64,000 nt of DNA from Leucoraja erinacea (taxonomy: Eukaryota). The DNA is taken from positions 25,420,001 to 25,484,000 of the forward strand of contig NC_073401.1 in NCBI RefSeq assembly GCF_028641065.1, read 5' to 3'. Below the pieces are notes generated by a model. The model worked only from the letters and a program-made list of their open reading frames with translations. It had not been told where the DNA came from and did not search any database. Positions 2,550-61,453 of the stretch are shown here, in pieces. Position 1 is the first letter of the stretch. The number at the start of each line of letters is the position of its first letter. A program made the translations under genes and the position numbers.

Positions 2550-2677
2550 TCTCTTCAGGGAGCCTCGTGATGTACCAAAACACTCAGTCAGTAGACGGTC
2601 ACACCCACCTGTTATCGCCCGGTCAAAGCAGCATCGAAACCTTCATCCCACACCAGGTGGTCTCCACCGCTCCGTAA
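2550..2677 (+). CDS. HNF1A: HNF1A, terminal coding exon (upstream exons not identified; probably before the window)
   Basis: Polypyrimidine tract + AG (tctctctctcccccttcattcgcag) ends at 2549; phase-1 exon reads (V)SSGSLVMYQNTQSVDGHTHLLSPGQSSIETFIPHQVVSTAP*, matching the recalled human HNF1A C-terminus [42 protein letters not shown]. Tail-to-tail with C12orf43 as in human. Confidence 0.9.
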
Positions 2678-3239
2678 CCGTGCCAACACGAAGCGAAGCA
2701 GTAGCAGAAGCAGACTCTCTCGGATAATACAGCGGGATCCAACCAATCTTCAGCTGTGTGACCGATAGTCTTCGAGCAAACATCGCACGCAGATTGTACC
2801 TGCATATTATTTTTGTCTAAAGAATTACTTTATTATCGAGGGTTGTTTTGAGAGTTGTTGTTGTGCAATAATTTTTAATGAAAATCCTCAAATTGTGTAT
2901 CGGATAATTCAAGAGCTACATAAGGTGGAACGAGTTTGACACAGGCATGGATGTGGTGGGGAGAGGAGAGAACTACACGCCAGATCCTCCCATTGTTTAA
3001 TGCTCGAGTGATATTTAGCAGTCAAACCTGCATTTTGTGCTGCCATTTTATTCACATAGATTTTATAATATGAACTTAATTTAAGCAATGATTTTTGACA
3101 AACCTCTTCACATCAAACATATATATTTTTTTCCTTTTGATTATAAAAATATAAAAAAATATTTAACTCACCAAATTGTGACATTGCAGCTCACATTGTA
3201 AACATTAGCGGTTCACTTATAAATTGCAATATATACAGT

Positions 3240-3245
3240 ATTAAA
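3240..3245 (+). promoter_or_regulatory. Candidate HNF1A polyadenylation signal (ATTAAA)
   Basis: ATTAAA ~560 nt after the stop in an AT-rich, repeat-free stretch, followed by U/GU-rich sequence. Confidence 0.3.
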
Positions 3246-3807
3246 GTACATCTTCTTTGTATGACTGCTGTGACTTTCATTTTATTTGATTGAATCTCAT
3301 TTTATAAAACGGTGGTACTTCCCCCCAACTCATCGTATCCCCGAGTAACTCTTGCCTGACTTGGTATTTCTGGCCCAGAGGGTTAAAAAAACAAGAACGG
3401 GATTCATGTTACCTGAGGATTTCAACCTTTGACCCAGAGGTTTTTTGGCTTATTAGTGCACCGTGTCTACCAATGAGGGCAAAGGGTGAAGGTCAAAGGG
3501 CAAATTACCAGCATACTTCCCCCAGATCAATAGTGAGCCACGTTTAAGGACACAATCCCAATACAGGCAAATGTGATTAGTGTAGATGGGGGGAAAGGTC
3601 AGCAACGACATGGAAGGCCAAAGGTTTCTGTGCTCGTAAGTTCATATGTCAAAGGAACAGGATTAGGCCATTCGGCCCATTGAGTCTACTCCACCATTCA
3701 ATCATGGTTGATCTACCTTTCCCTCTCAAACACATTCTCCTGGCTTCTCCCCTTAACCTTTGATGCCCTTATTAATCAAGACTGATTAAAAGTGCTGTAT
3801 AACTCGG

Positions 3808-4119
3808 GGCGGCACGGTGGCGCAGAGTTAGAGTTGCTGCCTTACAGCGCCAGAGACCCGGGTTCAATCCTGACTGCGGGGTGCTTGTCTGTGCAGAGTT
3901 TGTATGTTCTCCCCGTGACCTGCGTGGGTTTTCTCCAGGATCTCCGGTTTCCTCCCACACTCCAAAGACGTACAGATTTGTAGGCTGATTGGGTTGGCGT
4001 CATCGTTAATTATCCCTCGTGTGTGTAGGGTAGTGTAAGTGCGCAGGAATTGCTGGTCGGCGCGCACTCGGTTGCCTGAAGGGCCTGTTTCCGCGCTGTA
4101 ACGGTATACTAAACTAAAC
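3808..4119 (+). mobile_element. HE1/V-SINE (tRNA-derived), near full-length; representative of roughly 25 copies (e.g. 263-530, 6657-6955, 8808-9093, 14017-14280, 24356-24633, 28672-28982, 36257-36560, 45265-45590, 47285-47580)
   Basis: GGCGGCACGGTGGCGCAG A box, GGTTCAATCC B box, V-domain GAGTTTGTATGTTCTCCCCGTG...CCGGTTTCCTCCCACACTCCAAAGAC, CR1-like 3' end and (TAAAC)n tail. Confidence 0.85.
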
Positions 4120-4189
4120 TGCATGACGCTAATTACAATTAGATGATTCTGATGGCATGGCACATCTTCTAATGTTCAAAATTTGACGA

Positions 4190-4522
4190 CAGATGGCGCA
4201 ATGGGCTAAGTGTTCGGCTGGCGACCGGAAGGTAGCCGGTTCGAATCCCGCTTGGAGTGCATACTGTCGTTGTGTCCTTGGGCAAGACACTTCACCCACC
4301 TTTGCCTGTGTGTGAATGTGTGTGAGTGATTGGTGGTGGTCGGAGGGGCTGTAGGCACAGATTAGCAGCCGCGCTTCCGTCAGTCTGCCCCAGGGCAGCT
4401 GTGGCTACAGAAGTAGCTCACCACCACCGAGTGTGACTGAGGAGTGAATGAATAATGCGATGTAAAGCGCCTTGAGTATCTAGAAAGGCGCTATATAAAT
4501 CCCATCCATTATTATTATTATT
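4190..4522 (+). mobile_element. tRNA-derived CORE-type SINE with L2-type tail (resembles teleost AFC-like SINEs)
   Basis: TGGCGCAATGG A box, GGTTCGAATCC B box, CORE-like GTGTCCTTGGGCAAGACACTT, 3' TGTAAAGCGCCTTGAG...AGGCGCTATATAAAT and (ATT)n tail. Confidence 0.8.
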
Positions 4523-17686: not shown

Positions 17687-17699
17687 TAAACAGACCAAC

Positions 17700-21119: not shown

Positions 21120-21540
21120 TCATAACCCATCTGTTACCAGAACTCCTTTTAACTTAATTTTGGATATATGTTTACCATTTTTGGGTTTCTTTCTTTTCTT
21201 TCCACCCCTTTCAACATCAGCTTCTTCTGTCTTGAAGCGTTCCTGACCCTCCAGAGTTTCATCAGTAAATTCTGTTTGTTCCAGCTCTTTTACCAGAACT
21301 CGGCACTTCTGTTTGGATTTTCTTGTTGAAACTGCCTCCTCGTCCTCTTTACTATCGTCCCCACCTTCAGTGGCCAGCTTCCTCTTTTTCCTCTTCTTCT
21401 TTTTCCAATTGCCTTTGTTCTCAGCGGGGCCTTCCTCCTGATTTGTCTCTGGCTGATTGCTGACGATGGAACTTTGCCAAAGTAAGTCGTCGCCCGAAAC
21501 CACTGCCTCCTTCAACCGATCCCATTCACTGTCCGACTCA
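21120..21540 (-). CDS. C12orf43: CUSTOS exon 6 (terminal; Lys-rich NLS-like tail)
   Basis: 421 nt; SESDSEWDRLKEAVVSGDDLL (human SEDSDEEWRRCREAAVSASDIL), then KKKKRKKRKL...GKKRKKPK; TGA at 21120-21122. The six exons total 834 nt = 277 aa + stop. Confidence 0.93.
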
Positions 21541-21837
21541 CTGTAATATTCAACACACCATGATTAATGATAGGCTGCATACACTCAGCTAGAATAGAAA
21601 TGTAATGAACCTGTGAGGCTGCATCGGTATACGTATTCAGAATCGTCCCCTATTCCTGGAAGGTATAACTTAGAAGAAAGGTCTCGACCCAAAACGTCAC
21701 CCATTCTCTCCACAGATTCTGCCTGTCCCGTTGAGTTACTCTCTCTCTTAGGTGTAACTTATACATCCAATTCGTCTCCGAACATCAAAGAATAAACTAT
21801 ATATTAATAATCCTTTTTTGGGAGGGAAATCTGATGG

Positions 21838-22250
21838 TTTAGAGATACAGAGTGGAAGCAGGCCCTTCAGTTCACCAAGTCCATGCCGACCACCGATCAC
21901 CCTTACACTAGTTTGGTTTAGTTTAGAGATACAGCGTGGAAACAGGCCCTTCGGCCCACCAAATCCATGCCGACCATTAATCATCCGTATACTCATTTAG
22001 TTTAGTTTGGAGATGCAGCGTGGAAACAGGCCCATCATTCCATGCCAACCAGCAATCACCCACACACTTGTTCTATCCTACACACGAGGGACAATTTACA
22101 CACGCCTTTGGACTGTGGGAGTACCTAGAGAAAACCCACACTGTCACAAGGAGAATGTACATACTCCGTACAGACAACACCAGTAGTTAGGATTGAACTT
22201 AGGTCTCTGGCGCTGTAAGCCAGCAACTTTACCGCTGCGCCACCGTGCCG
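21838..22250 (-). mobile_element. HE1/V-SINE with a triplicated 3' tail segment
   Basis: tttagagatacagcgtggaaacaggcc...catgccgacca unit occurs three times (~21838, ~21922, ~22005) next to one SINE body. Confidence 0.75.
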
Positions 22251-23032
22251 TCCCTGGTTCCATGTCCAACACACTAGGGGCAATTTACAGAAGTCGATTA
22301 ACCTACAAACCTGCCGTCTTTGTTATGCGGATACACCAGCACCCGTAGTCAAGATCGAACCCAGGCTCTCTGCTGTTGTGAGGCAGCAGCTCTGCTGCTG
22401 TACCGCCCTAATATTACCTAATAGATAACCTAGTTCTGGCTAGAGGGCAGGAACATTGCAATTGTGCTTTCTATATGGCCTTCAATTGTTCAATTCTTAG
22501 CCAATGATGAAATAAAATGGAATTCAAACTGGGACACAACATAGAAATATTCAATGTGAAATGTAACTTCAGGGGTCCCATAAACTCAGAGAAGGTACCA
22601 AAAATGATATCCAAATATACTGATCTTTCACTGATGCTTGTCAAAGTTAAAGGATGCATAAGTTCACAAGTTCCACGAGCAGAATTAGGCCATTTGGACA
22701 ATCAAGCCTACTCCACCATTCAATCCATTCTATCATTCCCTCTCAACCCTATTCTGCTGCCTTCTCCCCACAACTCCGGACACCTGTACTAATCGCGAAT
22801 CTATCAATCTCCTCCTTAAAAATACCCACTGAATGGGCCTCCACAGCCTTCTGTGGCAATTAATTCCACAGATTTACCATCCTCTGACTAAAGAATTTCC
22901 TCCTCAAGTTATTTCTAAAGATACATCCTTTTATTCTAAGGCAATGGCCTCTGGTCCTGGACTTGCTGGCCTTGGCTCAGTGGCAAATCTTGACCTGCTA
23001 ACTCAGATGGTCCGCTCTTCAGACTTGAAAGA

Positions 23033-23316
23033 CTTTAGGGATACAGTGCGGAAACAGGCCCTTCGGCCCACTATGTCCGTGCCAACCAGTGAACTATGCT
23101 AGTTCTATGCCCTACATACTAGGAGCAATTTACAGAAGCCAATTAACCTACAAACCTGCATGTCTTTGGGATGTGGGAGGAAAACGGAGCACCCGGAGAA
23201 AACCCACGCGGTCACAGGGAGAACGTACAAACTCTGTACACACAGCACCCGTAGTCAGGATGGAACCCGGGTCTCTGGCGTTGTAAGGCAGCAGCTGTAC
23301 CGCTGTACCACTGTGC
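23033..23316 (-). mobile_element. HE1/V-SINE copy
   Basis: Reverse complement of the V-domain and A/B boxes. Confidence 0.8.
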
Positions 23317-23772
23317 TGCTCCCAAGGCTTCGGCAAACAACTGAGGCTGCCACTTTCATGCAGTGTGGAGGAAGAGTTGTGTTGCAGGCGATGCTGGCTA
23401 CCAGATAAGGTGTTCTTCCAGCCAAGGCTCCATTTACACTCAAATTCCCTCGAGTTGGAAGTTGTACTAGTCTTTCGGAAACCATTTATGCCCCAGTAAG
23501 AATCAACAATCACCAGCCATCCAAATCATTTTAAGTGTTCTCAGCAGGTTTCCCTCTGTGTCAACAGCAACAATTTATTTGACACTCATTATCCATCAGG
23601 TCACAAATGGTGCTAATACAAATTCTGGTCCTGTTTATTTCTCGGTAGGTTTCCTAAACTGCACCCAAAACCACAAGAGTCCTCAGGGTGATTTGCTGCA
23701 ATTAAAGATGTTTCCATCAAAAAACTCTAGAAAACCACTTCCTCTAGCTTCTCCAAACCAGACAATAAAAGG

Positions 23773-23820
<48 letters not shown>
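23773..23820. repeat. (CTAT)12 microsatellite in CUSTOS intron 5
   Basis: Perfect tetranucleotide run. Confidence 0.95.
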
Positions 23821-24962
23821 TGTTCACTTTGTAGGGCAGGAAACAAGACAACACTTGGTTACGATTTGCGCATGTCTGCAGTAAAATGTACTATATCATT
23901 TATTATTTAGATTGCAAGCACTTGTGTGCAAAACGCCCAACAAATTTCCAACAAGGTGCTTTCTTGATTCACACTTGAGGTGAATATGCAAATTATAGCA
24001 CAGTCAGAGGCCCAGTGACCTCAAATGTGGTCATCATTTACATAGTTCTTCCTATGAAAATCTATTCCGTGATTTCACTGTGAATGCAAGAATTGGAGTG
24101 AGGAATTGCAGTTATCAGTGCAGTGTACATTGCCATCTATGTGTGAAGCATGCCCAATGCAGCAAGTTTCAATTGCCGCAGCAAAGTACTCGTATTCTTG
24201 CACTTCCAAGGCAAGAAAAAGCCCCAGGCCACTTTATGATTGCATTACCAACAGGGACTTTGGTAAGCTAAAAGAGGTAGCTTTTGATGTTTTATGTGAG
24301 ATAGAGGCACAAATGAGACTTGGGGGAAGGAAGAGAGTTAAGGTAAGGCATCTGAGGCGGCTCGGTGGCGCAGCGGTAGAGACCCGGATTCCATCCAAAC
24401 TACAAGTGCTGCCTGTACGGAGTTTGTACGTTCTTTCCGTGACAGCGTGGGGTTTTCCTGGGTGCTCCGGTTTCTTCCCACATTCCAAAGTCGTACAGGT
24501 TTGTAGGTTAATTGGCTTTGTTATAGATTGTAAATTTGTCCCTAGTGTGTAGGATTGTATAGGGGATCGCTGGTCGGCGCGGGTTCAGTGGGCCGAAGGG
24601 CCTGTTTCCACAATGTATCTTTAAACTAAACTAAAAAAAAAGAGAAAGGAATAGGTCACCCAGTCCTTGTCATCTGCTCTATCGTTCACTAAGAACGTAG
24701 TTAATTTTCTATCTCAGCTCCCTTTTCCAGCACTATCACCAAGTCCAGAAGGTGGTGACGAGGTCATCAACTTTCTCACATAAGGAAGTGGGGGCTCGTG
24801 AATATCTCAGTGTTACATACGTCTGGAGAGCTGCAAGAACATGAGGAATGAGAACTATAAAATTGAAGCACTGTTTAATTGGGAGTTGATATAAGCCACC
24901 CTGCAAGCAGATTTATGAAACCAAGTTTGAATCTTTTGATAATAAAGTAGTTCAGATAAATA

Positions 24963-25208
24963 CAGGTCCATCACCAATATTCCGGCACCTCCTTTAATCC
25001 GGACAATATTATGAGAGCGCACTTGAAATCCCCCCGGAAGTTCCCCCGAATATGTGGTGCCTAGGCCGGGTGAGGTGGCCGACCTCTACCTCAATGGAAC
25101 ATTTTCATCTGCACATTTTCAGTGGAACCACATAGGCGCTATTTAAATGTTGTTCGCATTAAAGGAGATGTCAGACCACCAGTGGCCAGAATATCAATGC
25201 TGGACCGG
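24963..25208. mobile_element. Degenerate MITE
   Basis: Imperfect TIRs CAGGTCCATCACCAATATTCCGG vs CCGGTCCAGCATTGATATTCTGG. Confidence 0.4.
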
Positions 25209-27070: not shown

Positions 27071-27161
27071 CTTGAACTAGGCGGGGGCTTCCATTTAACT
27101 GGAGATGAAGGTTCGACTTTCCTATGATCCTCGGGTATGCTTGTGGTAAATAATCGAAAAC
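27071..27161 (-). CDS. C12orf43: CUSTOS exon 5
   Basis: 91 nt; [31 protein letters not shown] (human GFRLFFTSVP...QPSSSS); AG|GTATGT donor. Confidence 0.93.
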
Positions 27162-40250: not shown

Positions 40251-40769
40251 TCAGCGTTTCTTTGGAACAGCTTCTACCTTGACCCAGTCTTTGTTCACCT
40301 TCACTGTGTTACAAACTATTTTCTCAAATACATCATACAGGATAGGCTTGGTCGCTTGTGTGAACTCAAACCAATTAGTGATTTCATCGCCTTTGCAGTG
40401 GTATTCTGATAGGTCTTTCATCACGTTAGCTTCAATGCACTCAGCTAAATCCTTCAACTTGAAGAAGGCTCCTCGCTTATTCTTTATGAGTCTGAGTTTC
40501 ATAATGCATTTGAAGATGAGTTTCCGCGGATTTCCGGCCTGGATTTTAGCGTGTTGCAACTGCGGGCAGAGCGTGTGGCCAACTCTATAAAAGGACGACT
40601 GTGCCTCCCCCATGATGTACATGTAAATGGTCGCTCCGTTCTGTTCCAGGAACTCCTCCTCGTCTAACTCGAGTGACGACGACGTGACATCGCGGATGAG
40701 ACGACTCTCCCCGTCACTGAAGTCAAACTCGTCAAAGTCACTGAAGTTGTCACTGACGTTGTTGCCCAT
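40251..40769 (-). CDS. 172-aa protein: MGxxxS N-terminus, acidic linker, T5orf172/MUG113-like (GIY-YIG superfamily) domain
   Basis: Intact non-repetitive ORF; strong Kozak ACGATGG; in-frame TAA at 40782-40784 upstream; splice acceptor cttttcttttcctcgctag at 40821-40822. Pattern YMYIM-x6-FYRVGHT-x-P...IQAGNPRKL...IEANVMKDLSEYH-x-KG...NWFEF resembles the family pattern YxI...YKIGxTxxPxxRxxxLQTGNPxxL...E...L..Y...GEWF. Confidence 0.75.
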   Translation of the reverse strand: MGNNVSDNFSDFDEFDFSDGESRLIRDVTSSSLELDEEEFLEQNGATIYMYIMGEAQSSFYRVGHTLCPQLQHAKIQAGNPRKLIFKCIMKLRLIKNKRGAFFKLKDLAECIEANVMKDLSEYHCKGDEITNWFEFTQATKPILYDVFEKIVCNTVKVNKDWVKVEAVPKKR

Positions 40770-48448: not shown

Positions 48449-50329
48449 AACCTCAGATATATTCCAGTTGGACCAGGTGATTTATCCATTCGATTTGCAG
48501 CTGGCCTTCTCCGCCTCTTCTTTAGGAATTATAGCCCCCCTCACCCTTAGTCTTGGTGCAAGGTCTTGACCCAAAATATCGAACATCTCTTTGACTCCAC
48601 AGAATCTGTTTGTCTTCTTTTAGTATCTTCTTCCAGGACGAAGGCGAACTCATAAAGTTTTAATTTAGCACCTCATGTCCTCAGCCCGTGGAACACCCGC
48701 GTTTTATCCGTAAAGACCACCCTGACCTCGTTGAATGCCATTTCAACTCGCCTTCCCATTTCCACGCCGACTCAGCTGTCCTCCACCCTCTCCACAGCCA
48801 GGGTGATGAAAAACTCAAACTGGAACGATAACACCTCACATTCCAACTGCTTAGTCTACAACCTATTGGCCTGAACATTTGAGTTTTCCAATTCCAGGTA
48901 ACCCACACTCCCTGTGGTCCTTCCTCCCAACCCGCACCCTCACCCATCTTCATGTCCCCCCTTCCCCTTGATTCCCTTTGTCACCCACTCATACCCACTG
49001 GGTCTCTGTCCCTCCCCCCCCCCCCCCCCCCCAACACTTCCATCTGCTAACCATCACTCCTTATCTAATTCCACATAACACCCACCTTCCTTGCCTATTA
49101 TATTCCCACATCCTCACCCTCTTGCATCTCCTTTTCAGCCTCTGCCTCTTCCTTCACTCTCCCCCTCACCCTACGCAGCTCTCAACTCTACCTATCACCC
49201 ACCAGCCACCCACTCCCAACTCCACCTTCACCCCTCTCTCCCACCTGACACCATCTGTCCATCCTATACCTCCACACCTGGTTCCGCCAATTGCTTACCT
49301 ACCCCGACCCAACATGACCCTGCAAATGGGTGAAGTAAGTGACAAAAACACGTGTTCATACAGTTATATATTTATTAATGTGGAATGCTTTAGTTGCACA
49401 GTAGATTGGATTTTGCATCAACATTACATTGCAAGGCATTTAGAACTCAAACTAACATGAAGACGGTAATTTTGAAGCAATGATTTGCAGAGTGTGTGGA
49501 AGCATTTCTCAGCATGGTGACGGTTGTTCTATGTTTTATATGTGATTTTTTTCCCTGTATGGTGAAGTATTTCACATTGGCCATAGAATAAGTGAGAAGC
49601 CAATGTGGTTTGTGAACTCGTAGGAATCAGATTCATCTGGACCACGCCGGTTTACAGCGCACACCTCTGATCCGAAGTCTGAAGAAGGGTCTCGACCCGA
49701 AATATCACCTATCCAGAGATGCTGCCTGTCCCGCTGAGTTATTCCAGCATTTTGTGTCTACAAATGGTGCGGAGTTGGATATGAAGGAATGTGTCAGATT
49801 TAAACAAACTGCATTTTTGGCCAAGCTGAGAAGGCTGGAATGTGACCAGCTGATCCAACTTGATCGGCTTTATTCATCCGAGATGATCACTCATCTGCGG
49901 CTATTTACAGTGCTGGAGACCTGAGTTTGATCCTGACTACGGGGGCTGTCTATATGAGGTTTGTACGTTCTCCACATGTCCTGCGTGGGTTTTCCCCGGG
50001 TGTTCCGGTTTCCACCCACGTTCCAAATACATAGAGGTTTGTGGGTTAATTAATTGGCTTTAGTAAACTTGTAAATTGTCCCTAGTGTGTGTAGGATGGC
50101 GTTAGCGTGCAGTGATCGTTGGTCAAAGCACTCAGTAGGCGGAAGGGCCTGCTTTCCCCCTGTATCTCGAGACTAAACCAAATGAAGCAGATAGGCAGCA
50201 GAAAGAAGCAAAGTGAACAATATCGAACATTGAACAAATCGACTCATCTCTAGTCTCTTTTAAATCAAGTATTAGAAAATAGGAATTCAAAATATAATTA
50301 AGTTTTAATCTAGTTCAGTCGAGCGCAAA

Positions 50330-50797
50330 TTAACCACCGCGCAGACGAAGCAGGAGCTGGATGGTGGACTGAGACCTGATGTTGTAATCTGAGAGCAACC
50401 GGCCATCTTCCAGTTGTTTGCTCTCAAATGTCAGGCGCTGTTGGTCGGGCGTGACCCCTTCCTGCCTTTGTACTTTTTTTTTAAACTCCCGCACGGACTC
50501 AGTAGGCAGCACGTCGTACGTGGTCGTTTTCCCCTTTTCGTTGAGGAGGAATATCTGCATGCGTTCCTCCTTCTTGATCAGCAGCATGACCGTGGAGTCA
50601 GGGGGGAGGTTGTAGTCCCTCAGTAGGCTGTTGTCCCGAAGCTCCACCTGCTGCCCGTTTTGCACCATCAGGCGCTGTTGGGAACTTGGCACCTGGGTTG
50701 CTTGGTATATTTTCTCCTTGAGAGCCGACACCTGGATGTTAGGGTCGACATCCAGTTGCAAAGATTCGCCGGTGAAATACTTCAACTGGAGTCTCAT
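50330..50797 (-). CDS. ISG15: ISG15-like di-ubiquitin protein, copy 1 (155 aa)
   Basis: Two tandem ubiquitin-like domains ending LRLRGG-stop; [15 protein letters not shown] resembles teleost ISG15; whole CDS in one exon with acceptor tttttccacag at 50810-50811; ISRE promoter upstream. Orthology to mammalian ISG15 is not established. Confidence 0.88.
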
Positions 50798-53332
50798 CTT
50801 GCCAAATCACTGTGGAAAAATGAGAAGAGATTAGAATCCTTTATATCACTTGTGAACGACTTCTTGTTAAATCCACAGTTACACTTAGTTTATTGTCCTG
50901 GATATTTCACATTACTGGAGTACACGTGACAATAAACAAAACTTATTACAAAGCGACTTTTACTTTGAGGTGGGAGGAATGGTGGCAAATTATTTCTCCC
51001 GTTGTGAATTGTCCCTAATGTTTAGGGTAGGATAGTGTGGTAGTGTGCGGGGATCGCAGGTTGTCGAGGACTCGGTGGGCTGAAGGGCCTGTTTTAACGC
51101 TGTATCTCTAAACTGAAACTAAGGTTGGAGAGACTCTTGCACTTCTGGACGTAGGGGGTGAGAGGTAGGGAACATCTGAAGATGAGAAAAGACCAGGAGA
51201 AATCAGGCCTGGCAACAAATGGCCTCAGACAGGATGGTTGCCCCATCGTTGGCTCAGGAAGGTGTGATCAAGACCGATACAATGTGGTGAACTGTGAACA
51301 GGTTAAACAATTAGGGTGGAGGAAGGGGGATGGGGAAGGGGTGTGTGTAGAAGTTACTTAAAATTAGAGAAATCCATATTCATACTAAATATTAATTAAG
51401 CACTATTGACTCTAATTCGATCTTTTTGCACATAAGTTGAATTCAGTCTTTCAATTTCAATATATTAGAAACATTGAAAATAGGTGCAGGAGTAGGCCAT
51501 TTGGCCCTTCGATAATATGATCATGGCTGATCATCCAAAATAAGTAGCCCGTTCTGGCTTTTTCCCCATATCCCTTGATTCCCTTTGCCCCAAGAGCTAA
51601 ATGACTCTCTCCATCCAGTGAATTGGCCTCCACTGCCTTCTGTGGCAGAGAATTCCAGATTCACAACTCTCTCAGTGAGACTCCCAAGGGCGGCTGAGCT
51701 GCAATACTGGGCTTCTGACAGAAGAGGTCCCCCGTGAGCTAAGTTTCGTTTAACACTGCGATTGCATCGCTTCCCGGGAAATGAGAGCAGGCTTTCATCA
51801 GAGTCAATAGTGTTTTTTTGTCATATGTCCCAGATAAAACAACCACATTCTCCCTTTCAGCAGCACAAGAGGATATGTAAACACAGCACTCTGTGAACAA
51901 TGTAATACATGAGAAAAAGTTAATTGTGTGTGTGTGTGATATATATAGTTAGTATACATATATATACACACATAAAAACAAATAAATAATAGTAAATCCG
52001 TGGCAATAAAAAACAAACTGCTGGAGGAACTCAGCTGGTCAGACAGCATCTGTGTAAGCAGAAGGATGGTCCCAAATCAGAGTCCTGGCCCGAGAAGTCA
52101 ACTTCCACAGATGCTGCTTGATCCGCTGAGTTACTGGATACAAAATACTGGAGTAACTCGGCGGGACAAGGCAGCATCTCTGGAGAGAAGGAACGGGCCG
52201 GGACCCTTCTTCAGACTGAATATAGAGGGGTGGGAACTAGAGGTAAGTAAAGGCCAGGACAAAAATCAGGGCGTATTATTAATTGTAAAGACCAACGACA
52301 TTCTGGATCGTATTAAATGGGCCACTCGTGTGGCTTTCTAAACCAGGGCCACCCTTCAACAGGATAAATCATATTCCAGCATTCTCCCCGTCTCGCACAC
52401 GACGACGACCTGCTACGACCAAAATCGGCGCGACTTTGCGATAACTCGCTTTCCACTGTCACAGTGACTGCGCAGTCAATTATTCACTTCAACCTCAGAC
52501 TTCCTGTCAGAACCAGTCGAGTCGCACAAAGAATATCATCTCCGCGGTTTACACCGAAGATAGACAGGAGTGAATCAGCGGGTCAGGCAGCCTCTATAGA
52601 GAAAAGCTCTTGAGGCTAATAATGATTATTTAACCAGCTGTTCCAGTGTCTCCATTGAAGTAGCGGAAACAGGTGTCACTAAACCCGCGAACATAAGAAT
52701 GTGGGAAGCAGGAGGCCATTCGGCCCGCTTCACTATTGGGGATATCACAACTGATATTTTATTTCACCCGCAGATACATAGATACAAAATACTGGAATAA
52801 CTCAGCGGGACGAGGCAGCATCCCTGGGGAGAAGGAACGGGGAGCTTTCTTCAGACTGAAAATAGAGATGAGGGAACTGGAGGTAAGAAAAGGCCAGGAC
52901 AAAAGTCAGGGCGTGCAACAGACGACCAAGGGAGGGCGGAGCCCACAATAGACTATTGTTGTTGGTTAGGGAAGAGGTGATAGCAGAGGGATGCGAGCAG
53001 TGGAGATCTTAGTCATAAAACGGCTAGGGTGTGGGAGAGGGCGGAGAGACAGAATGCCGGGATTATTTGAAATGAGATAAATCGACGATTATACCGCTGG
53101 GTGTTAAACTGCCCAAGTGAAATATGTGGACCTGTTTCTCCAGCACTTTTGTCTACATTCGATTTTCCAGCATCTGCAGCTCCTTCTTCATTACTCGATT
53201 CCAATATTTTTCTGCTAAATCTTCACCTCTCTATGTTATCAGCTGATAATAACATTTCCCACCCCATGCGCAGAATGGCAGTAATTTATTTTTAAATTGT
53301 GAATTTGCCCGTGTTCAGAAGTTTGAACTTAC

Positions 53333-53500
53333 CAACCGAAGCCTCACAATCCTTGCACAAGAAGTCGATGAGAATCTGATTGCAGAATATTCTGTCTCTT
53401 TTTCCAGAGCTCCGCTCTTTGCAAAATCCTCAATCTCCTTGGTTCGCTGGGACACGAGCTTCAATGCACACACCTCTGCCAGCGTCTAGCAGTCGTCTGC
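53333..53500 (-). other. Non-coding exon 1 of ISG15-like copy 1 (5' end approximate)
   Basis: Consensus donor G|GTAAGT at 53333/53332; no ATG in the exon; ~30 nt downstream of a GATAAA TATA-like box. Confidence 0.65.
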
Positions 53501-53519
53501 GCTCCCTCTGGCCGCTTCC

Positions 53520-53696
53520 CTTTGGCTTTATCTCCTCTTCCAAGTTTCTGAACGTCATCGCCACTTCCCCTCCCTCCGAGTATTCACAGGCTGCTCGCTG
53601 CTACAAAACAAACAAAACGTCATCTCAGTTTCGTTTCCGAAAAATAGTCAGCCGCTTTCAGAGCCGCCGGCTATTTCACTTTCGGATTCGTTTCTG
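53520..53696 (-). promoter_or_regulatory. Interferon-responsive promoter of ISG15-like copy 1
   Basis: ISRE CAGTTTCGTTTCC 53626-53638; IRF-E/ISRE TATTTCACTTTCGG 53672-53685 followed by TTCGTTTC; ATF/CRE half-sites ACGTCA at ~53552 and ~53617; GATAAA (- strand) 53527-53532. Confidence 0.8.
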
Positions 53697-53940
53697 ACCC
53701 CCTGAATCCGAAATACAATAACAGCACAGGGAATCGATGCTGCAATCAGCTGTTGATCCACCATCACTGCAAGCACTTCTTGGTTGCAATGTAACTGATT
53801 TTCACTTAAATGCAACATGAAAATAACCGCTCTTCGCATCTGTGGCAACGAACTGCAGATGCTGGTTTAAACCGAAGTTAGTCACAAAAAGGTTGGAGTG
53901 ACTCAGCGGGTCAGACAGCATCTCTGGAGAAAAGGGATAG

Positions 53941-53970
53941 GTGACGTTTCGGGTCGAGACCCTTCTTCAG
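53941..53970 (-). ncRNA. Minimal hammerhead-ribozyme-like motif in a Penelope-type terminal repeat (also 33632-33661 -, 61698-61727 -, 48360-48387 +, 31473-31500 +)
   Basis: CTGAAGA-A-GGGTC-TC-GACCC-GAAA-C-GTC: CUGANGA and GAAA core boxes, helix II, ACGT palindrome, GUC site; helix I only ~2 bp. Confidence 0.55.
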
Positions 53971-54096
53971 ACACTGTATTAAGGTTTCAACTGATTGAGA
54001 AGCTTTTAAGGGGCAGAACTTTCAAGGGTCCCGGGGGATTTGGAGTGAAAATAACACCCATGACGTGCCAGGCTTTGTCCCACCTCCTCCGTTTTA

Positions 54097-55880
54097 AGGT
54101 CATAAGGGATAGTAGAATTAGGCCGTTTGGCCCATTAAGTCTACTCCGCCATTCAATCAAGGCTGATCTATCTTTCCCTCCTAACCCCATTCTCCTGCCT
54201 TCTCCCCATAACCCCTGACACCTGTACTAATCAAGAATCTATCTATCTCTGCCTTAAAAATATCCACTGACTTGGCCTCCACAGCCTTCTGTAGCAAAGA
54301 ATACCACAGATTCATCATCCTATGACTAAATAAATTTCTCCTCATCTCCTTCCTAAAAGATCGTCCTTTAATTCTGAGGATATGACCTCTAGTCCTAGAC
54401 TCTCCCACAAGTGGAAACATCCTCTCCACATCCACTCTATCCAAGCCTTTCACTATTCTATAGGTTTCAATGAAGTCCCCTCTCATTCTCCTAAACTCCA
54501 GCGAGTGCAGGCCCAGTGCCAACAAACGCTCATCATAGGTTAACCCACTCATTCCTGGGATCATTCTTGTAAACCTCTGGACCCTCTCCAGAGCCAGCAC
54601 ATCCTTCCTCAGATATGGTGCCCAGAATTGCTCACAACATTTCAAATGTGGCCTTACCAGCGCCTTATAGAGCCTCAGCATTACATCCCTGTTTTTGTAT
54701 ACAAGCCCTCTTGAAATAAATGGCAGCATTAAGTTTGCTTTCTTTACTGCTGATTAGACTTTCAGATTAACTTTTTGGCAATCCTGCACCAGCACTCCCA
54801 AGTCCCTTTGCACCTCCGATTTCTGGATTCTCACCCCGTTTAGAAAATAATTTCCTACTTCACGCTTTGCTATACTATATCCCACCTGCCACTTCTCTGC
54901 CCACTCTCACAGCCTGTCCAAGTCCTTCTGCAGAGTACCCACCTTCTCTACACTACCTGCCCCTCCACCTATTTTCTACACCACCTGCCCCTCCACCTAT
55001 TTTCGTATCATCTGCAAACTTTGCCACAAAGCCTTCAATCTCTTCGTCCAAATCATTAATATACAATGTGAAAAATAGCAGCCCCAACACCGACCCTTGC
55101 GTAATTCCACTAGTCACTGGCAGCCGTCCAGAAAAAGCCCCCTTTATTGCCACTTTATTGTCTTCTGCCATCCAGCCAACCTGCTTTCCATGCTAGTATC
55201 TGCCCTTTGATACCGTGGGCTTTCAACTTATTTAGCACCTTATCAAAGGCTTTCTGAAAATCTAAATCTGACTCCTTTGACTGTCCAGCTATTTAGTTCT
55301 TCAAAGAATTCCAGCAAATTTGTCAAGTAAGAACTCCCCTACACAAAGCCGAACTGACTTTGGCCTATTTTATCGTGAACTTCTAAGTACTCCGTAACCG
55401 CATCCTTTATAATGGACTCTAAAGTCTTACCAACCACCGAAGTCAGGCCAGCCGACCTATAGTTCCCACTATTCTGCCTAGCTTCCTTTTTGTGCAGCAG
55501 GGCAATTTTCCAATCATTTGGTCCAACTCCTGTCGATATCACTGTCAATGCCTCCACAACCTCCACAGCCACCCTTGGGTACAGTCCATCCTGTCCAGGT
55601 GACATCCACCTTCAGCCCTTTCACCTTCCCAAGCACCTTCTCCCATCGTAATAACAATTCCACTAACTCCCACCCCCTGACTCTCTCGAATTTCAGGCCC
55701 GTTGCCGGTGTATTCCACTGTGAAGACTGATGCAAAAAAGTTATTCAGCTCCTCTGCCATTTCTTTATTCCCCATTATCACTTCTCCTGCATCAATCTCC
55801 AGTGGTCCAACGTCCACTCTTGCCTTTTGTTCTCTTTATATAACTGAAGAAACTCTTGCTGTCCTCTTTTATATTATTTC
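54097..55880 (-). mobile_element. CR1 LINE RT region, degenerate (duplicated at ~61855-63640)
   Basis: NYRSAGLTSVVGKTLESII, SGITQGSVLGLLFFTLYINDL, KFADDTKIGG, LYKALVRPHL, RRMRGDFIETYRI. Confidence 0.92.
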
Positions 55881-56099
55881 CCAACTTTTTTTCCACCCGA
55901 CACCAATCAGTCTGACAAAGGGCCCAGCCCCGAAACGTCATCTGTCTATTCTCGCCACTGATGCTGCCTGACCCGCTGAGTTCCACCGGCATCCTGGTGT
56001 TTTGAACACTTTCCCACAGCTTTGCCCCTCACCCCAGCCACAGTAACAAAGCAGGACAAGCAACATCTCTGCAGAGAAGGGATGGGTGATATTTCGGAT

Positions 56100-56560
56100 T
56101 ACATAGAAACATAGAAAATAGGTGCAGAAGTAGATCATTCGGCCCTTTGAGCCTGCACCACCATTCAATATGATCATGGCTGATCATCCAACTCAGTATC
56201 CTGTACCTGCCTTCTCTCCATGATCCCTCTAGCTACAAGGGCCACATCTAACTCCCTCTTAAATATAGCCAATGAACTGGCCTTAACTACCTTCTGTGGC
56301 AGAGACTTCCTGAGATTCACCACTCTTTGTGTGAAAAATGTTTTTCTCATCTCGGTTCTAAAGGATTTCCCCTCAATCCTTAAGCTGTGACCCCTTGTCC
56401 TGGACTTCCCCAACATCGGGAACAATCTTCCTGCATCTAGCCTGTCCAACCCCTTAAGAATTTTGTAAGTTTCTATAAGATCCCCCCTCAATCTCCTAAA
56501 TTCTAGCGAGTACAATCCGAGTCTATCCAGTCTTTCTTCATAAGAAAGTCCTGACATCCC
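56100..56560 (-). mobile_element. CR1 LINE 3' fragment (duplicate starts ~63857)
   Basis: MSGLSYEERLDRLGLYSLEFRRLRGDLIETYKILKGLDRLD; (catagaaa)n tail. Confidence 0.9.
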
Positions 56561-58366
56561 ATTGAGACCCTTCCTCAGACTGAGTGGCAGGGGAGAGGAA
56601 GTCTAGAGATATGGAAGGGTAGGTGTGAAAACGACAGATCAAAGCAGATGAGTGTAAGGAAATGTTGAATGGTTCATTGTTAGCTGAGCGGAAGGTGACT
56701 GGAGGATTAATAATTAATTTAGAGGGAAACTAAAGGAAAAATTAAAGTTACAGACTTCGCAGGTTAGCTTCAAGGGACATTATTGCATGATATCATGGAG
56801 AGATGGCGGCAGAAAACTGCTCACCAGTTCACTGACTTCATCGTAGAATTAGCCGACAGTTATACTGTGCAGTAAACAACATTGAGTGATGAAAAACTCA
56901 AACTGGAAGGATAACACCTCACATTCCAACTGCTTAGTCTACAACCTATTGGCCTGAACATTTGAGTTTTCCAATTCCAGGTAACCCACACTCCCTGTGG
57001 TCCTTCCTCCCAACCCGCACCCTCACCCATCTTCATGCCTCCCCTTCCCCTTGATTCCCTGTGTCTGTCACCCACTCATACCCACTGGGTCTGTGCCCCT
57101 CCCCCCCCCCCAACACTTCCATCTGCTAACCATCACTCCTTATCTAATTCCACATACCACCTTCCTTGCCCATTATATTCCCACATCCTCACCCTCTTGC
57201 GTCTCCTTTTCAGCCTCTGCCTCTTCCTTCACTCTCCCCCTCACCCTACGTGGCTCTCAACTCTACCTATCACCCACCAGCCACCCACTCCCAACTCCAC
57301 CTTCACCCCTCTCTCCCACCCGACACCATCTGCCCATCCTATACCTCCACACCTGGTTCCGCCAATTGCTTACCTGCCCCGACCCAACATGACCCTGCAA
57401 ATGGGTGAAGTAAGTGACAAAAACACGTGTTCATACAGTTATATATTTATTAATGTGGAATGCTTTAGTTGCACAGTAGATTGGATTTTGCATCAACATT
57501 ACATTGCAAGGCATTTAGAACTCAAACTAACATGAAGACGGTAATTTTGAAGCAATGATTTGCAGAGTGTGTGGTGAAGTATTTCACATTATAGATTGGA
57601 GGATAGATCAGCTATCCTTTGGCCATAGAATAAGTGAGAAGCCAATGTGGTTTGTGAACTCGTAGGAATCAGATTCATCTGGACCACGCCGGTTTACAGC
57701 GCACACCTCTGAACCGAAGTCTGAAGAAGGGTCTCGACCCGAAATATCACCTATCCAGAGATGCTGCCTGTCCCGCTGAGTTACTCTGGCATTTTGTGTC
57801 TACAAAAGGTGCGGAGTTGGATATGAAGGAATGTGTCAGATTTAAACAAACTGCATTTTTGGCCAAGCTGAGAAGGCTGGAAAGTGGCCAGCTGATCCAA
57901 CTTGCTTTATTAATCCGAGATGATCATTCATCTGCGGCTATTTACAGTGCCGGAGACCTGAGTTTGATCCTGACTACGGGTGCTGTCTATATGAGGTTTG
58001 TACGTTCTCCACATGTCCTGCGCGGGTTTTCCCCGGGTGTTCCGGTTTCCACCCACGTTCCAAATACATAGAGGTTTGTGGGTTAATTAATTGGCTTTAG
58101 TAAACTTGTAAATTGTCCCTAGTGTGTGTAGGATGGCGTTAGCGTGCAGTGATCGTTGGTCAAAGCACTCAGTAGGCGGAAGGGCCTGCTTTCCCCCTGT
58201 ATCTCGAGACTAAACCAAATGAAGCAGATAGGCAGCAGAAAGAAGCAAAGTGAACAATATCGAACATTGAACAAATCGACTCATCTCTAGTCTCTTTTAA
58301 ATTAAGTATTAGAAAATAGGAATTCAAAATATAATTAAGTTTTAATCTAGTTCAGTCGAGCGCAAA

Positions 58367-58834
58367 TTAACCACCGCGCAGACGAAGCAGGAGCTGGATG
58401 GTGGACTGAGACGTGATGTTGTAATCTGAGAGCAACCGGCCATCTTCCAGTTGATTGCTCCCAAATGTCAGGCGCTGTTGGTCGGGCGTGACCCCTTCCT
58501 GCCTTTGTACTTTTTGTTTAAACTCCCGCACGGACTCAGAAGGCAGCACGTCGTACGTGGTCATTTTCCCCTTGTCATTGCGGAGGAATATCTGCATGCG
58601 TTCCTCCTTCCTGATCAGCAGCATGACCGAGGAGTCAGGGGGGAGGTTGTAGTCCCTCAGCCGGCTGTTGTCCCGAAGCTCCACCTGCTGCCCGTTTTGC
58701 ACCATCAGGCGCTGTTGGGAACTTGGCACCTGGGTTGCTTGGTATATTTTCTCCTTGAGAGCCGACACCTGGATGTTAGGGTCGACATCCATTTGCAAAG
58801 ACTCGCCGGTCAAATACTTCAACTGGAGTCTCAT
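58367..58834 (-). CDS. ISG15: ISG15-like di-ubiquitin protein, copy 2 (155 aa)
   Basis: 142/155 aa identical to copy 1; LRLRGG-stop; acceptor at 58847-58848. Confidence 0.88.
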
Positions 58835-60089
58835 CTTGCCAAATCACTGTGGAAAAATGAGAAGAGATTAGAATCCTTTATATCACTTGTGAACGACTTC
58901 TGTGTTAAATCCACAGTTACACTTAGTTTATTGTCCTGGATACAATTTCACATTTTTACTTTGAGTACACGTGACAATAAACAAAACTTATTACAAAGCG
59001 CACTTTTACTTTGAGGTGGGAGGAAATGCATTTACTGGTGACAAAGTTATTTCTCCCTTGTGAATTGTCCAGAGTGTTTAGGGTACAGAGTTTGTACGTT
59101 CTCCCACTGACCTGCGTGGGTTTTCTCCAGGTGCTCTGTGTGGTACTGGATTGTAAGTTAATTGGCTGCGGGGGTCGCAGGTTAGTGTGCGGGGATCGGG
59201 GTTGTCGACTCGGTGGGCTGAAGGGCCTGTTTTAACGCTGTATCTCTAAACTGAAACTAAGGTTGGAGAGACTCTTGCACTTCTGGACGTAGGGGGTGAG
59301 AGGTAGGGAACATCTGAAGATGAGAAAAGACCAGGAGAAATCAGGCCTGGCAACAAATGGCCTCAGACAGGATGGTTGCCCCATCGTTGGCTCAGGAAGG
59401 TGTGATCAAGACCGATACAATGTGGTGAACTGTGAACAGGTTAAACAATTAGGGTGGAGGAAGGGGGATGGGGAAGGGGTGTGTGTAGAAGTTACTTAAA
59501 ATTAGAGAAATCCATATTCATACTAAATATCAATTAAGCACTATTGACTGTAATTCGATCTTTTTGCACAGAAGTTGAATTCAGTCTTTCAATTTCAATA
59601 TATTAGAAACATTGAAAATAGGTGCAGGAGTAGGCCATTTGGCCCTTCGATAATATGATCATGGCTGATCATCCAAAATAAGTAGCCCGTTCTGGCTTTT
59701 TCCCCATATCCCTTGATTCCCTTAGCCCCAAGAGCTAAATGACTCTCTCCATCCAGTGAATTGGCCTCCACTGCCTTCTGTGGCAGAGAATTCCAGATTC
59801 ACAACTCTCTGGGTGAGACTCCCAAGGGCGGCTGAGCTGCAATACTGGGCTTCTGACAGAAGAGGTCCCCCGTGAGCTAAGTTTCGTTTAACACTGCGAT
59901 TGCATCGCTTCCCGGGAAATGAGAGCAGGCTTTCATCAGAGTCAATAGTGTTTTTTTGTCATATGTCCCAGATAAAACAATCACATTCTCCCTTTCAGCA
60001 GCACAAGAGGATATGTAAACACAGTACTCTGTGAATAATGTAATACACGAGAAAAAGTTAATTGTGTGTGTGGTATATAGTTAGTATAC

Positions 60090-60120
<31 letters not shown>

Positions 60121-61089
60121 AAAACAAATAAATAATAGTAAATCCGAGGCAATAAAAAACAAACTGCTGGAGGAACTCAGCTGGTCAGACAGCATCTGTG
60201 TAGGCAGAAGGATGGTCCCAAATCAGAGTCCTGGCCCGAGAAGTCAACTGCCACAGATGCTGCTTGATCCGCTGAGTTACTGGATACAAAATACTGGAGT
60301 AACTCAGCGGGACAAGGCAGCATCTCTGGAGAGAAGGAACGGGCCGGGACCCTTCTTCAGACTGAAAATAGAGAGGTGGGAACTAGAGGTAAGTAAAGGC
60401 CAGGACAAAAATCAGGGCGTATTATTAATTGTAAAGACCAACGACATTCTGGATCGTATTAAATGGGCCACTCGTGTGGCTTTCTAAACCAGGGCCACCC
60501 TTCAACAGGATAAATCATATTCCAGCATTCTCCCCGTCTCGCACACGACGACGACAGGGAAGAGGTGCTAGCAGAGGGATTCGAGCAGTGGAGATCTTAG
60601 TCATAAGGCGGGTAGGGAGTGGGAGAGGGCGGAGAGACAGAATGCCGGGATTATTTGAAATGAGATACATCGTCGATTATACCGCTGGGTGGTAAACTGC
60701 CCAAGCAAAAAGCTGGAGTATCTCAGCGGCAGCATCTCTGGAGAGAATGGGTGAGATTTCGGGTCGAGACCCTTCTTCAGACGAGGTGCTGTTCCTCCAT
60801 CGCCCGACACTAACCCAGTATCACTTGATCCCAAGGTAGACAAAAATGCTGGAGAAACTCAGCGGGTGCTACTGCTACTGAACCTGCTGAGTTTCTCCAG
60901 CACTTTTGTCTACCTTCGATTTTCCAGCATCTGCAGTTCCTTCTTCATCACTCGATTCCAATATTTTTCTGCTAAATCTTCACCTCTCTATGTTATCAGC
61001 TGATAATGGCATTTCCCACCCCATGCGCAGAATGGCAGTAATTTCTTTTTAAATTGTGAATTTGCCCGTGTTCAGAAGTTTGAACTTAC

Positions 61090-61257
61090 CAACCGAAGCC
61101 TCACAATCCTTGCACAAGAAGTCGATGAGAATCTGATTGCAGAATATTCTGTCTCTTTTTCCAGAGCTCCGCTCTTTGCAAATTCCTCAATCTCCTTGGT
61201 TCGCTGGGACACGAGCTTCAATGCACACACCTCTGCCAGCGTCTAGCAGTCGTCTGC
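61090..61257 (-). other. Non-coding exon 1 of ISG15-like copy 2 (5' end approximate)
   Basis: G|GTAAGT donor at 61090/61089; paralogous to 53333-53500. Confidence 0.65.
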
Positions 61258-61276
61258 GCTCCCTCTGGCCGCTTCC

Positions 61277-61453
61277 CTTTGGCTTTATCTCCTCTTCCAA
61301 GTTTCTGAACGTCATCGCCACTCCCCCTCCCTCCGAGTTTTCACAGGCTGCTCGCTGCTACAAAACAAACAAAACGTCATCTCAGTTTCGTTTCCGAAAA
61401 ATAGTCAGCCGCTTTCAGAGCCGCCGGCTATTTCACTTTCGGATTCGTTTCTG
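61277..61453 (-). promoter_or_regulatory. Interferon-responsive promoter of ISG15-like copy 2
   Basis: ISRE CAGTTTCGTTTCC 61383-61395; TATTTCACTTTCGG 61429-61442; GATAAA (- strand) 61284-61289; motifs identical to copy 1. Confidence 0.8.

What the first reader, a model, noticed from the sequence alone, without database searches (positions are those of the whole stretch)
2550..61453. Stand-alone ISG15-like genes occupy the OASL position: possible pre-fusion state of OASL
Seen: order HNF1A(+) / C12orf43(-) / di-ubiquitin genes(-). Established: at human 12q24.31 the order is HNF1A(+), C12orf43(-), OASL(-), P2RX7; OASL ends in two ubiquitin-like domains encoded by its last exon, and avian OASL keeps an RGG end. 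Mammalian ISG15 lies elsewhere (1p36, between HES4 and AGRN). Here each di-UBL is a single exon with its own acceptor and ISRE promoter, and no OAS exons are visible. Inference: OASL arose when an OAS gene spliced onto such an exon, so fish-type 'ISG15' may be orthologous to the OASL tail rather than to mammalian ISG15.
Basis: partly seen in the sequence, partly recalled or inferred. Interest (0 to 1): 0.82.

Follow-up and report, generated by a model that had tools for sequence, protein, structure and literature searches.

The report
ISG15 genes beside intact OASL cluster
In this skate two stand-alone copies of what is likely the antiviral tag ISG15 sit head-to-head with three intact OASL genes just beyond the window, so this is not a pre-fusion state, but the pairing likely dates from early jawed vertebrates and points to a neighbouring ISG15-type exon as the likely source of OASL's tail.

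Summary
The two di-ubiquitin-like genes are real and stand-alone: non-coding first exon, spliced transcript, ISRE-like promoter, LRLRGG end. The 'pre-fusion' reading fails. Three intact six-exon OAS–di-UBL (OASL) genes start 4.2 kb past the window, a transcript contig joins OAS exons to the tail, and Chu et al. 2023 already date the fusion to before jawed vertebrates. In trees the window proteins group with a reptile ISG15-type sequence and a coelacanth sequence (99/98), apart from OASL tails of sharks, lungfish, birds and mammals (98/97). So they are likely ISG15, not the OASL tail's orthologue (strict form rejected, AU p=0.016; looser forms p≈0.07). What survives: ISG15 and the OASL tail are likely sister copies (94/91 against 16 controls). 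They share a chromosome-size contig in 14 of 16 named sharks and rays. Coelacanth, boa and bearded-dragon gene models run an OAS into an ISG15-type unit. The skate HES–AGRN interval, ISG15's mammalian home, holds no ubiquitin-like frame. The ISG15–OAS linkage is therefore probably ancestral and the mammalian site derived; ten literature searches did not find this. No teleost or mammalian ISG15 was in the tree.

The parts
2550..2677 (+). HNF1A last coding exon
   Evidence: Pfam HNF-1A_C E 4.6e-13; acceptor and stop read
21123..30639 (-). C12orf43/CUSTOS, two located exons (30532-30639 and about 21123-21563); other exons not mapped
   Evidence: PF23999 over cut-off for one exon, under cut-off for the last exon
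40251..40769 (-).
   Evidence: no Pfam hit
50330..50809 (-). ISG15-like copy A, exon 2: acceptor at 50809, CDS 50797-50330, 155 aa, ends LRLRGG
   Evidence: a 128-nt contig matches 50507-50634 with no difference
53333..53475 (-). Copy A non-coding exon 1 (placed by homology to copy B)
   Evidence: 98% identical duplicate block; junction not seen for this copy
53629..53683 (-). Copy A promoter: two ISRE/IRF-like sites
   Evidence: function not tested
58367..58846 (-). ISG15-like copy B, exon 2: acceptor at 58846 followed by in-frame TGA, CDS 58834-58367, 155 aa, ends LRLRGG
   Evidence: spliced contig
61090..61232 (-). Copy B non-coding exon 1 (contig-supported part; 5' end may lie further up), GT donor after 61090
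   Evidence: run X1 record 7
61386..61440 (-). Copy B promoter: two ISRE/IRF-like sites (GAAACGAAACT, GAAAGTGAAA)
   Evidence: function not tested
48803..62256 (.). Recent tandem duplication, unit about 7.8-8.1 kb, 94-98% identical blocks, carrying one ISG15-like gene each
   Evidence: blastn
61441..64000 (.). In-window part of the 7-kb spacer between copy B and the divergently transcribed OASL cluster, which starts 4.2 kb past base 64000 (three six-exon OAS + di-UBL genes and one OAS without tail; coordinates under the observation check)

Best explanation
The two genes are stand-alone, spliced di-ubiquitin-like genes that are likely this skate's ISG15, recently duplicated, lying head-to-head with three intact OASL genes in what is likely the ancestral jawed-vertebrate ISG15-OAS cluster. 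Shown: gene anatomy, splicing, the OASL neighbours, and two separate clades (ISG15-type units, OASL tails). Inferred function: interferon/IRF factors bind the ISRE-like sites, the 155-aa protein is made with its LRLRGG end already free (no pro-piece to cut), and it is conjugated to proteins through the terminal glycine as teleost and mammalian ISG15 are. Inferred history: before sharks and bony fish split, an ISG15-type exon beside an OAS gene was copied and spliced in phase 0 onto the last OAS exon, giving OAS-UBL; the free copy stayed as ISG15; the pair stayed linked in cartilaginous fish, coelacanth and squamates; mammalian ISG15 later moved between HES4 and AGRN.
For: Stand-alone: contig bridging exon 1 and exon 2 at GT-AG; in-frame TGA directly after the acceptor would stop any phase-0 OAS read-through. 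OASL intact: 3 of 3 genes give 511-aa frames with 5 of 5 GT-AG introns and the catalytic DAD motif; a 1416-nt contig of run X2 lays on OAS exons 1-4 and the tail exon, and the exon 4-5 and exon 5-tail joints are listed for that run. OAS-UBL proteins in many sharks, rays and Callorhinchus. Tree of 38 di-UBL units: ISG15-type clade (15 free chondrichthyan units, coelacanth, boa) 99/98; OASL tails (12 chondrichthyan, 6 sarcopterygian) 98/97; same split for UBL1 alone (95/88, 92/93) and the ISG15-type clade for UBL2 alone (94/92), and with a mixture model on 25 of the rows (98/92, 93/93). The boa unit scores human ISG15 91 bits against chicken OASL tail 58. Sister relation of the two clades 94/91 with 16 unrelated divergent di-UBL controls. 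No UBL frame in 310 kb between AGRN and a HES gene in this genome.
Against: No teleost or mammalian ISG15 sequence could be put in the tree; the link to mammals runs through one long-branched boa sequence from a fused gene model. Direct profile scores are nearly tied: free-type profile gives mouse/human ISG15 119.6/119.0 and chicken OASL tail 114.9 bits; the single window protein gives 82.9 and 83.4. The shark OASL-tail C-domain profile scores mouse ISG15 (88.0) above ubiquitin (84.6), with the chicken tail outside the top 60. The sister grouping is just under the strong-support mark, and FAT10 was not sampled. Vlasschaert et al. 2017 state that zebrafish and human ISG15 are syntenic (PMC5381560, passage), which if right would put the move to the mammalian site before bony vertebrates and clash with the squamate models. 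Interferon induction and conjugation were not tested.
Confidence: 0.7

Rival explanations
1. One reading: the locus shows the state before OAS fused to a di-UBL exon, and fish-type ISG15 is the orthologue of the OASL tail, not of mammalian ISG15.
For: Position beside C12orf43 as for human OASL (human order recalled); avian OASL second UBL shares QQRL and LLRLRGG states with the free shark proteins (supplement of PMC6307210); near-tied profile scores; looser tree versions not rejected.
Against: Fused OASL genes next door and spliced; OAS-UBL in Callorhinchus; published dating of the fusion before jawed vertebrates; shark and tetrapod OASL tails form one clade without the free genes; strict version rejected, p=0.016. 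QQRL and LRLRGG are also ubiquitin's own states, so sharing them is not evidence of kinship.
Confidence: 0.06
2. The free genes arose the other way round or independently: either by fission from an early OAS-UBL gene, or separately from polyubiquitin, ending up beside OASL through clustering of interferon-induced genes.
For: The tree is rooted only by ubiquitin and cannot give the direction of the copy; sister support 94/91 is not starred; the free C-domain is about 55% identical to ubiquitin.
Against: A shark-lineage fission is rejected (AU p=0.0017). None of 16 independently diverged di-UBL controls joins the ISG15+OASL stem. OAS proteins outside jawed vertebrates have no UBL (PMC6307210 passage; PMC10400998), so the UBL came to OAS from elsewhere. 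An ancient fission cannot be excluded.
Confidence: 0.12
3. Swap: amniote ISG15 descends from the shark-type OASL tail released by fission, while tetrapod OASL took its tail from the fish-type free gene.
For: Shark OASL tails and reptile ISG15-type units both have aromatic residues (YYL, FWL) where ubiquitin has QRL, and N before the terminal motif; mouse ISG15 scores best among single units on the shark OASL C-domain profile.
Against: The boa ISG15-type unit groups with the free shark genes in both domains separately; avian and shark OASL first UBLs share W-x-I-P and GIF(Y/F) motifs absent from the free genes; the free N-domain profile scores mouse ISG15 67.7 bits in one stretch against ubiquitin 53.
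Confidence: 0.04
4. The linkage is confined to cartilaginous fish, and the coelacanth, boa and Pogona records are annotation artefacts without meaning.
For: The boa and Pogona models have non-homologous linkers, typical of merged predictions; no genome coordinates could be seen.
Against: A merged model still needs the two genes to be neighbours on one strand; coelacanth and two squamates show it; the coelacanth joint is clean (OAS exon end WDVK straight into the unit, no start Met) in both the UniRef and RefSeq models.
Confidence: 0.08

Closest known systems
ISG15 (mammalian; teleost)
   Same: Two tandem UBL domains, about 155 aa, LRLRGG end, ISRE-like promoter, whole protein in the second exon; full-length match to solved ISG15 chains; predicted fold matches ISG15 with TM 0.52-0.74 depending on the chain, di-ubiquitin chains 0.47-0.64, chicken OASL tail 0.49; ESM Atlas neighbours named ISG15 at 0.95 and 0.94.
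   Different: Only 34-38% identical to mammalian ISG15 and 42-44% to di-ubiquitin; no C-terminal pro-piece; ATG in exon 2; two tandem copies; lies beside OASL, not in the HES-AGRN interval. RefSeq names most shark orthologues 'polyubiquitin-like'.
OASL / OASa.U tandem-UBL tail (Chu et al. 2023, PMC10400998; chicken tail PDB 7SBI, Shepard et al. 2022, PMC8764230)
   Same: Di-UBL in one exon with an acceptor just before UBL1; likely sister clade; same locus.
   Different: Separate clade since before the shark/bony-fish split; 38% identical to the skate's own OASL tail; no OAS domain; opposite strand; own promoter. The genome's true OASL genes are the three neighbours.
Polyubiquitin / linear di-ubiquitin
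   Same: Fold; second domain about 55% identical; QQRL and LRLRGG kept.
   Different: No RGG between the two domains, first domain far from ubiquitin, Leu8 and Ile44 positions changed to Asp and Thr in the second domain of copy B (alignment).

Membership tests
ISG15 | Two tandem ubiquitin-like domains with no cleavage site between them | tested here: met
   Pfam ubiquitin x2; alignment A1; AlphaFold model pLDDT 86.5
ISG15 | C-terminal LRLRGG | tested here: met
   both copies, directly followed by stop
ISG15 | Stand-alone transcript from its own promoter | tested here: met
   spliced contig exon 1-exon 2 for copy B; copy A-specific contig (the run's RNA label is a guess, the GT-AG joint is the evidence)
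ISG15 | Groups with tetrapod ISG15, not with OASL tails or ubiquitin | tested here: inconclusive
   groups with a boa ISG15-type unit 99/98; no mammalian or teleost ISG15 in the tree; direct PDB scores near-tied
ISG15 | Induced by type I interferon | not testable with these tools
   two ISRE-like sites per promoter; no stimulated samples identified
ISG15 | Conjugated through UBA7/UBE2L6/E3, removed by USP18 | not testable with these tools
   a search for E1 genes rang nowhere, including controls
ISG15 (mammalian locus, positional only; not a defining trait of the protein family) | Position between HES4 and AGRN | tested here: not met
   no UBL frame in 310 kb between AGRN and a HES gene on G000:C30
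OASL (window genes) | OAS domain joined to the di-UBL in one frame | tested here: not met
   non-coding exon 1, in-frame TGA after the acceptor, no same-strand OAS exons
OASL (neighbours beyond the window) | NTase + OAS1_C + tandem UBL in one spliced frame | tested here: met
OASL (neighbours beyond the window) | 2-5A synthetase activity | not testable with these tools
   DAD motif and FDVLP motif present
Polyubiquitin | Near-invariant 76-aa repeats each ending RGG | tested here: not met
   46% identity to di-ubiquitin, no internal RGG

The most novel reading that the evidence does not exclude
ISG15 and OAS formed one interferon-induced cluster in the first jawed vertebrates; OASL was born there when OAS captured a copy of its neighbour ISG15, the capture happened again in the coelacanth (an OAS carrying a true ISG15 unit as its tail) and possibly in squamates, and mammalian ISG15 at 1p36 is a later transposition. 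The OASL tail, avian 'OASLylation' included, would then be a tethered ISG15 paralogue.
Probability: 0.45. Interest if true: 0.68.

Novelty: new member of a known kind. Interest (0 to 1): 0.5.

Why it matters
Chu et al. 2023 showed that OAS gained UBL domains before jawed vertebrates but do not name the donor (ISG15 occurs 0 times in their main text; supplement unreadable). A conserved ISG15-OAS neighbourhood plus a sister relation names a likely donor and a simple mechanism, exon capture from next door. It would explain why avian OASL tails can conjugate like ISG15 (PMC8764230), re-read the 'independently acquired' UBLs on squamate OAS1-type proteins as neighbouring ISG15, and correct the 'polyubiquitin-like' names of shark ISG15 genes. 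The claim can be checked quickly with public assemblies. The genes themselves are ordinary members of known families.

Tried and rejected
Pre-fusion state: rejected. Window exons as tails of an OASL: rejected. Shark-lineage fission: rejected (p=0.0017). Swap of ISG15 and OASL tails between fish and amniotes: raised by C-domain motifs, dropped after per-domain trees. Getting teleost or mammalian ISG15 sequences failed: the profile search was swamped by tri-ubiquitins, the representative search returned OAS proteins and multi-UBL arrays, a motif scan of metagenome contigs found nothing. A profile of OASL-tail first domains against the PDB was not made, so chicken OASL and mammalian ISG15 are not compared with it domain by domain. 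PDB lists were capped at 60 rows and filled by ubiquitin for some single-domain queries. No RNA holder listed; raw-read runs gave low depth over the coding exons, swamped by repeats, and say nothing on induction. E1 search uninformative. A stricter ISRE pattern found 0 sites; the promoter sites fit only the looser core. dN/dS between copies A and B (13 non-synonymous, 3 synonymous; pN 0.036, pS 0.028) is too small a count to call selection. OAS-domain tree (quick) leaves deep branches open; it only shows the boa OAS is OAS1-type. Langevin 2013 and Magor 2013 were not held. Earlier scan notes: none on this protein or place; one unrelated bacterial note.


Full report
The window lies at G000:C25:25,420,001-25,484,000 of a 2.19-Gb genome. 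The nearest named proteins are from skates (Amblyraja radiata 90%, Rhinoraja 79%), so I treat it as a skate. Coordinates above 64000 are window numbering continued along the contig.

Observation. HNF1A ends at 2550-2677(+) (earlier exons upstream). CUSTOS/C12orf43 exons lie on the minus strand at 30532-30639 and about 21123-21563 (weak). Two 155-aa di-UBL frames ending LRLRGG-stop lie at 50330-50797 and 58367-58834 (-) in a recent tandem duplication with 94-98% identical blocks. Each has an acceptor 12 nt before the ATG and two ISRE-like sites upstream of a non-coding first exon. A 327-nt contig of run X1 joins 61232-61090 to 58846-58663 at the predicted GT-AG sites, and another matches copy A without difference over sites that distinguish the copies. 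The run's RNA label is a guess; the joint is the evidence. The first codon after the acceptor is an in-frame TGA, so these exons cannot serve as a phase-0 tail.

What lies beyond the window. Searching the genome with the protein and with OAS1_C found three more di-UBL exons on the plus strand, each preceded by OAS exons. They resolve into three six-exon genes at 68198-75410, 77763-86270 and 89256-96302, each a 511-aa open frame with 5 of 5 GT-AG introns and the DAD catalytic motif. The tail exon is joined in phase 0. A 1416-nt contig of run X2 lays on exons 1-4 and the tail exon, and GT-AG joints for exons 2-3, 3-4, 4-5 and 5-tail are listed in runs X1 and X2 (the contig differs at some letters and may come from a paralogue). 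A fourth OAS of another type follows at 103778-108686 with no tail found in the next 135 kb; another OAS-UBL gene is on C7 and a distant OAS on C3. OASL-1 starts 4.2 kb past the window, about 7 kb from the first exon of copy B, head to head, and has its own ISRE-like site. OAS-UBL proteins occur across sharks and rays and in Callorhinchus. Chu et al. 2023 (PMC10400998; I read section 5 and passages; supplement unreadable) conclude that NTase-OAS1_C-UBL is the ancestral architecture, gained before jawed vertebrates. The pre-fusion reading is therefore wrong.

What the free genes are. Direct scores do not separate ISG15 from the OASL tail: 82.9 against 83.4 bits for the single protein, 119.6/119.0 against 114.9 for the 22-sequence profile; the shark OASL profile prefers the chicken tail, 104.8 against 82.4-101.5 for ISG15 chains. 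A profile search of cluster representatives supplied OAS-UBL proteins of lungfish, finch, tortoise, bat and a marsupial, plus two unusual records named: a coelacanth OAS whose tail is 51% identical to the skate free protein, and a boa model in which an OAS1-type unit runs through a non-homologous linker into a di-UBL that scores human ISG15 91 bits and the chicken OASL tail 58. In a 38-row tree rooted on di-ubiquitin, the 15 free chondrichthyan units, the coelacanth unit and the boa unit form one clade (99/98), and all 18 OASL tails another (98/97) (bootstrap not fully settled; boa, bat and marsupial branches long). The split holds for UBL1 alone; for UBL2 alone the ISG15-type clade holds (94/92) while OASL tails are unresolved. 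It holds under a mixture model with 13 rows left out. AU tests: free + coelacanth + tetrapod/lungfish OASL tails without boa and shark tails p=0.016; the same with boa p=0.069; everything but boa p=0.073; free + shark tails p=0.0017; coelacanth unit with OASL tails p=0.018. By eye, avian OASL first domains share W-x-I-P and GIF(Y/F) with shark OASL tails, not with the free genes (supplement of PMC6307210). I conclude the window genes are likely ISG15. The weak point is that no teleost or mammalian ISG15 was available for the tree. The AlphaFold model (pLDDT 86.5, pTM 0.58) fits most ISG15 chains better (TM 0.61-0.74) than the chicken OASL tail (0.49), but three ISG15 chains score 0.52-0.53 and some di-ubiquitin chains 0.63-0.64, so this is weak.

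With 16 unnamed, independently diverged di-UBL units added as controls (picked from 76 candidates), ISG15-type units and OASL tails are sisters at 94/91, just under strong support, and no control joins them. FAT10 was not sampled. Linkage: 14 of the 16 named species have an OAS-UBL record on a contig of the same length (Rhincodon and Pristiophorus could not be compared). RefSeq accessions are within 5 of each other in Heptranchias and Rhinoraja, and far apart in Amblyraja and Scyliorhinus canicula; accession order is only a hint. Outside cartilaginous fish, both coelacanth models join OAS cleanly to an ISG15-type unit with no start Met, and boa and Pogona models run an OAS into a complete ISG15-type protein (supplement of PMC6307210). 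Real fusion or merged prediction, each needs the genes to be neighbours. Chu et al. note squamate OAS1-type proteins with 'independently acquired' UBLs; these may be the same thing. In this genome AGRN and a HES gene lie 300 kb apart on C30 with no UBL frame between them under three profiles, while the control region gives all five expected hits. That ISG15 lies between HES4 and AGRN in mammals, and the human HNF1A-C12orf43-OASL order, are recalled. P2X genes are on C25 but 6 and 12 Mb away. Against an ancestral linkage: Vlasschaert et al. 2017 state without detail that zebrafish and human ISG15 are syntenic (PMC5381560 passage; nothing more in its supplement).

Mechanism. Shown: anatomy and splicing. 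From established knowledge of ISG15: interferon-driven transcription through ISREs, activation of the terminal glycine by E1/E2/E3 and conjugation to host and viral proteins. Inferred for the skate: the same, without a pro-piece; neither induction nor conjugation was tested. Inferred history: copy of an ISG15-type exon onto OAS exon 5 before the shark/bony-fish split, retention of the cluster, a second capture in coelacanth, relocation in mammals. Direction (free to fused) rests on OAS proteins of other animals lacking UBLs (passages). Shepard et al. 2022 (PMC8764230, abstract and passages) show that the chicken OASL tail resembles ISG15 and conjugates, which fits a shared origin; the passages I saw make no claim on synteny.

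Novelty. ISG15 and OASL are known families and the age of the fusion is published. Ten library searches (listings, with passages read in eight papers) showed no paper on an ISG15-OAS linkage or on ISG15 as donor; 'ISG15 + OASL + coelacanth' gave 0 papers. The library lacks most subscription papers, and Langevin 2013 and Magor 2013, which may discuss ISG15 synteny, were not held. Verdict: observation partly confirmed, pre-fusion refuted, orthology swap unlikely, ancestral linkage and shared origin likely and apparently unreported; interest 0.5.

Noticed in passing
window 40251-40769 (-): Single-copy 172-aa ORF between C12orf43 and ISG15 copy A, with an acceptor-like site upstream and an N-terminal MG..S that resembles a myristoylation signal (recalled motif). 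No Pfam hit and no significant PHROG hit, but ESM Atlas neighbours are T5orf172/MUG113/GIY-YIG clusters, mostly bacterial and phage, at 0.92-0.93. No relative in viral contigs; single-sequence fold poor (pLDDT 41). An unexplained nuclease-like frame in an interferon-gene neighbourhood; expression and homologues untested.
   Followed up: partly
P0220 / P0357 (coelacanth, H3BDF0, XP_014342322.1): OAS domain joined directly to an ISG15-type di-UBL rather than an OASL-type tail; grouping with OASL tails rejected (p=0.018). Possible second capture or merged model.
   Followed up: partly
P0257 (boa, XP_063171880.1); Pogona entry in supplement 2 of PMC6307210: OAS models that run into a full reptile ISG15-type protein; the Pogona one is listed in that paper among reptile OASL sequences.
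   Followed up: partly
L015, extended 85773-86270 (+): OASL-2 has lost the RGG end of its tail while OASL-1 and -3 keep RVRGG followed by a 12-residue extension, like the pro-form described for avian OASL.
   Followed up: no
L044/L031, G000:C7 about 974,500-986,000 (+): A further OAS-UBL gene near the end of another chromosome, combining the second OAS type with a tail of the first type; part of one exon appears duplicated.
   Followed up: partly
L045/L046, G000:C3 about 100.23 Mb (-): Distant OAS-family gene, 28-47% identical to the OASL domains, possibly the OASb class of Chu et al..
   Followed up: no
P0231, P0304, P0342, P0357 C-termini: A third OAS architecture in shark, caecilian and coelacanth: OAS plus a single UBL ending in a cysteine-bearing hydrophobic tetrapeptide (e.g. 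CILM, CTLL, CCII) that looks like a prenylation signal (recalled motif).
   Followed up: no
L019:6484-7149 (+), extended 130484-131149: Next gene after the OAS cluster looks like group III secreted phospholipase A2 (weak Pfam hit, E 0.00036); an unidentified RS-rich frame follows at extended 152002-152868 (-).
   Followed up: partly
window 50330-50797 vs 58367-58834: The two ISG15-like copies differ at 13 non-synonymous and 3 synonymous sites, 9 of the 13 residue changes in or next to the conjugating C-terminal domain; counts too small to test for selection.
   Followed up: partly
L032:4186-4653 (-), G000:C10: Intronless, slightly decayed ubiquitin-L40 (UBA52) copy, likely a processed pseudogene.
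   Followed up: no
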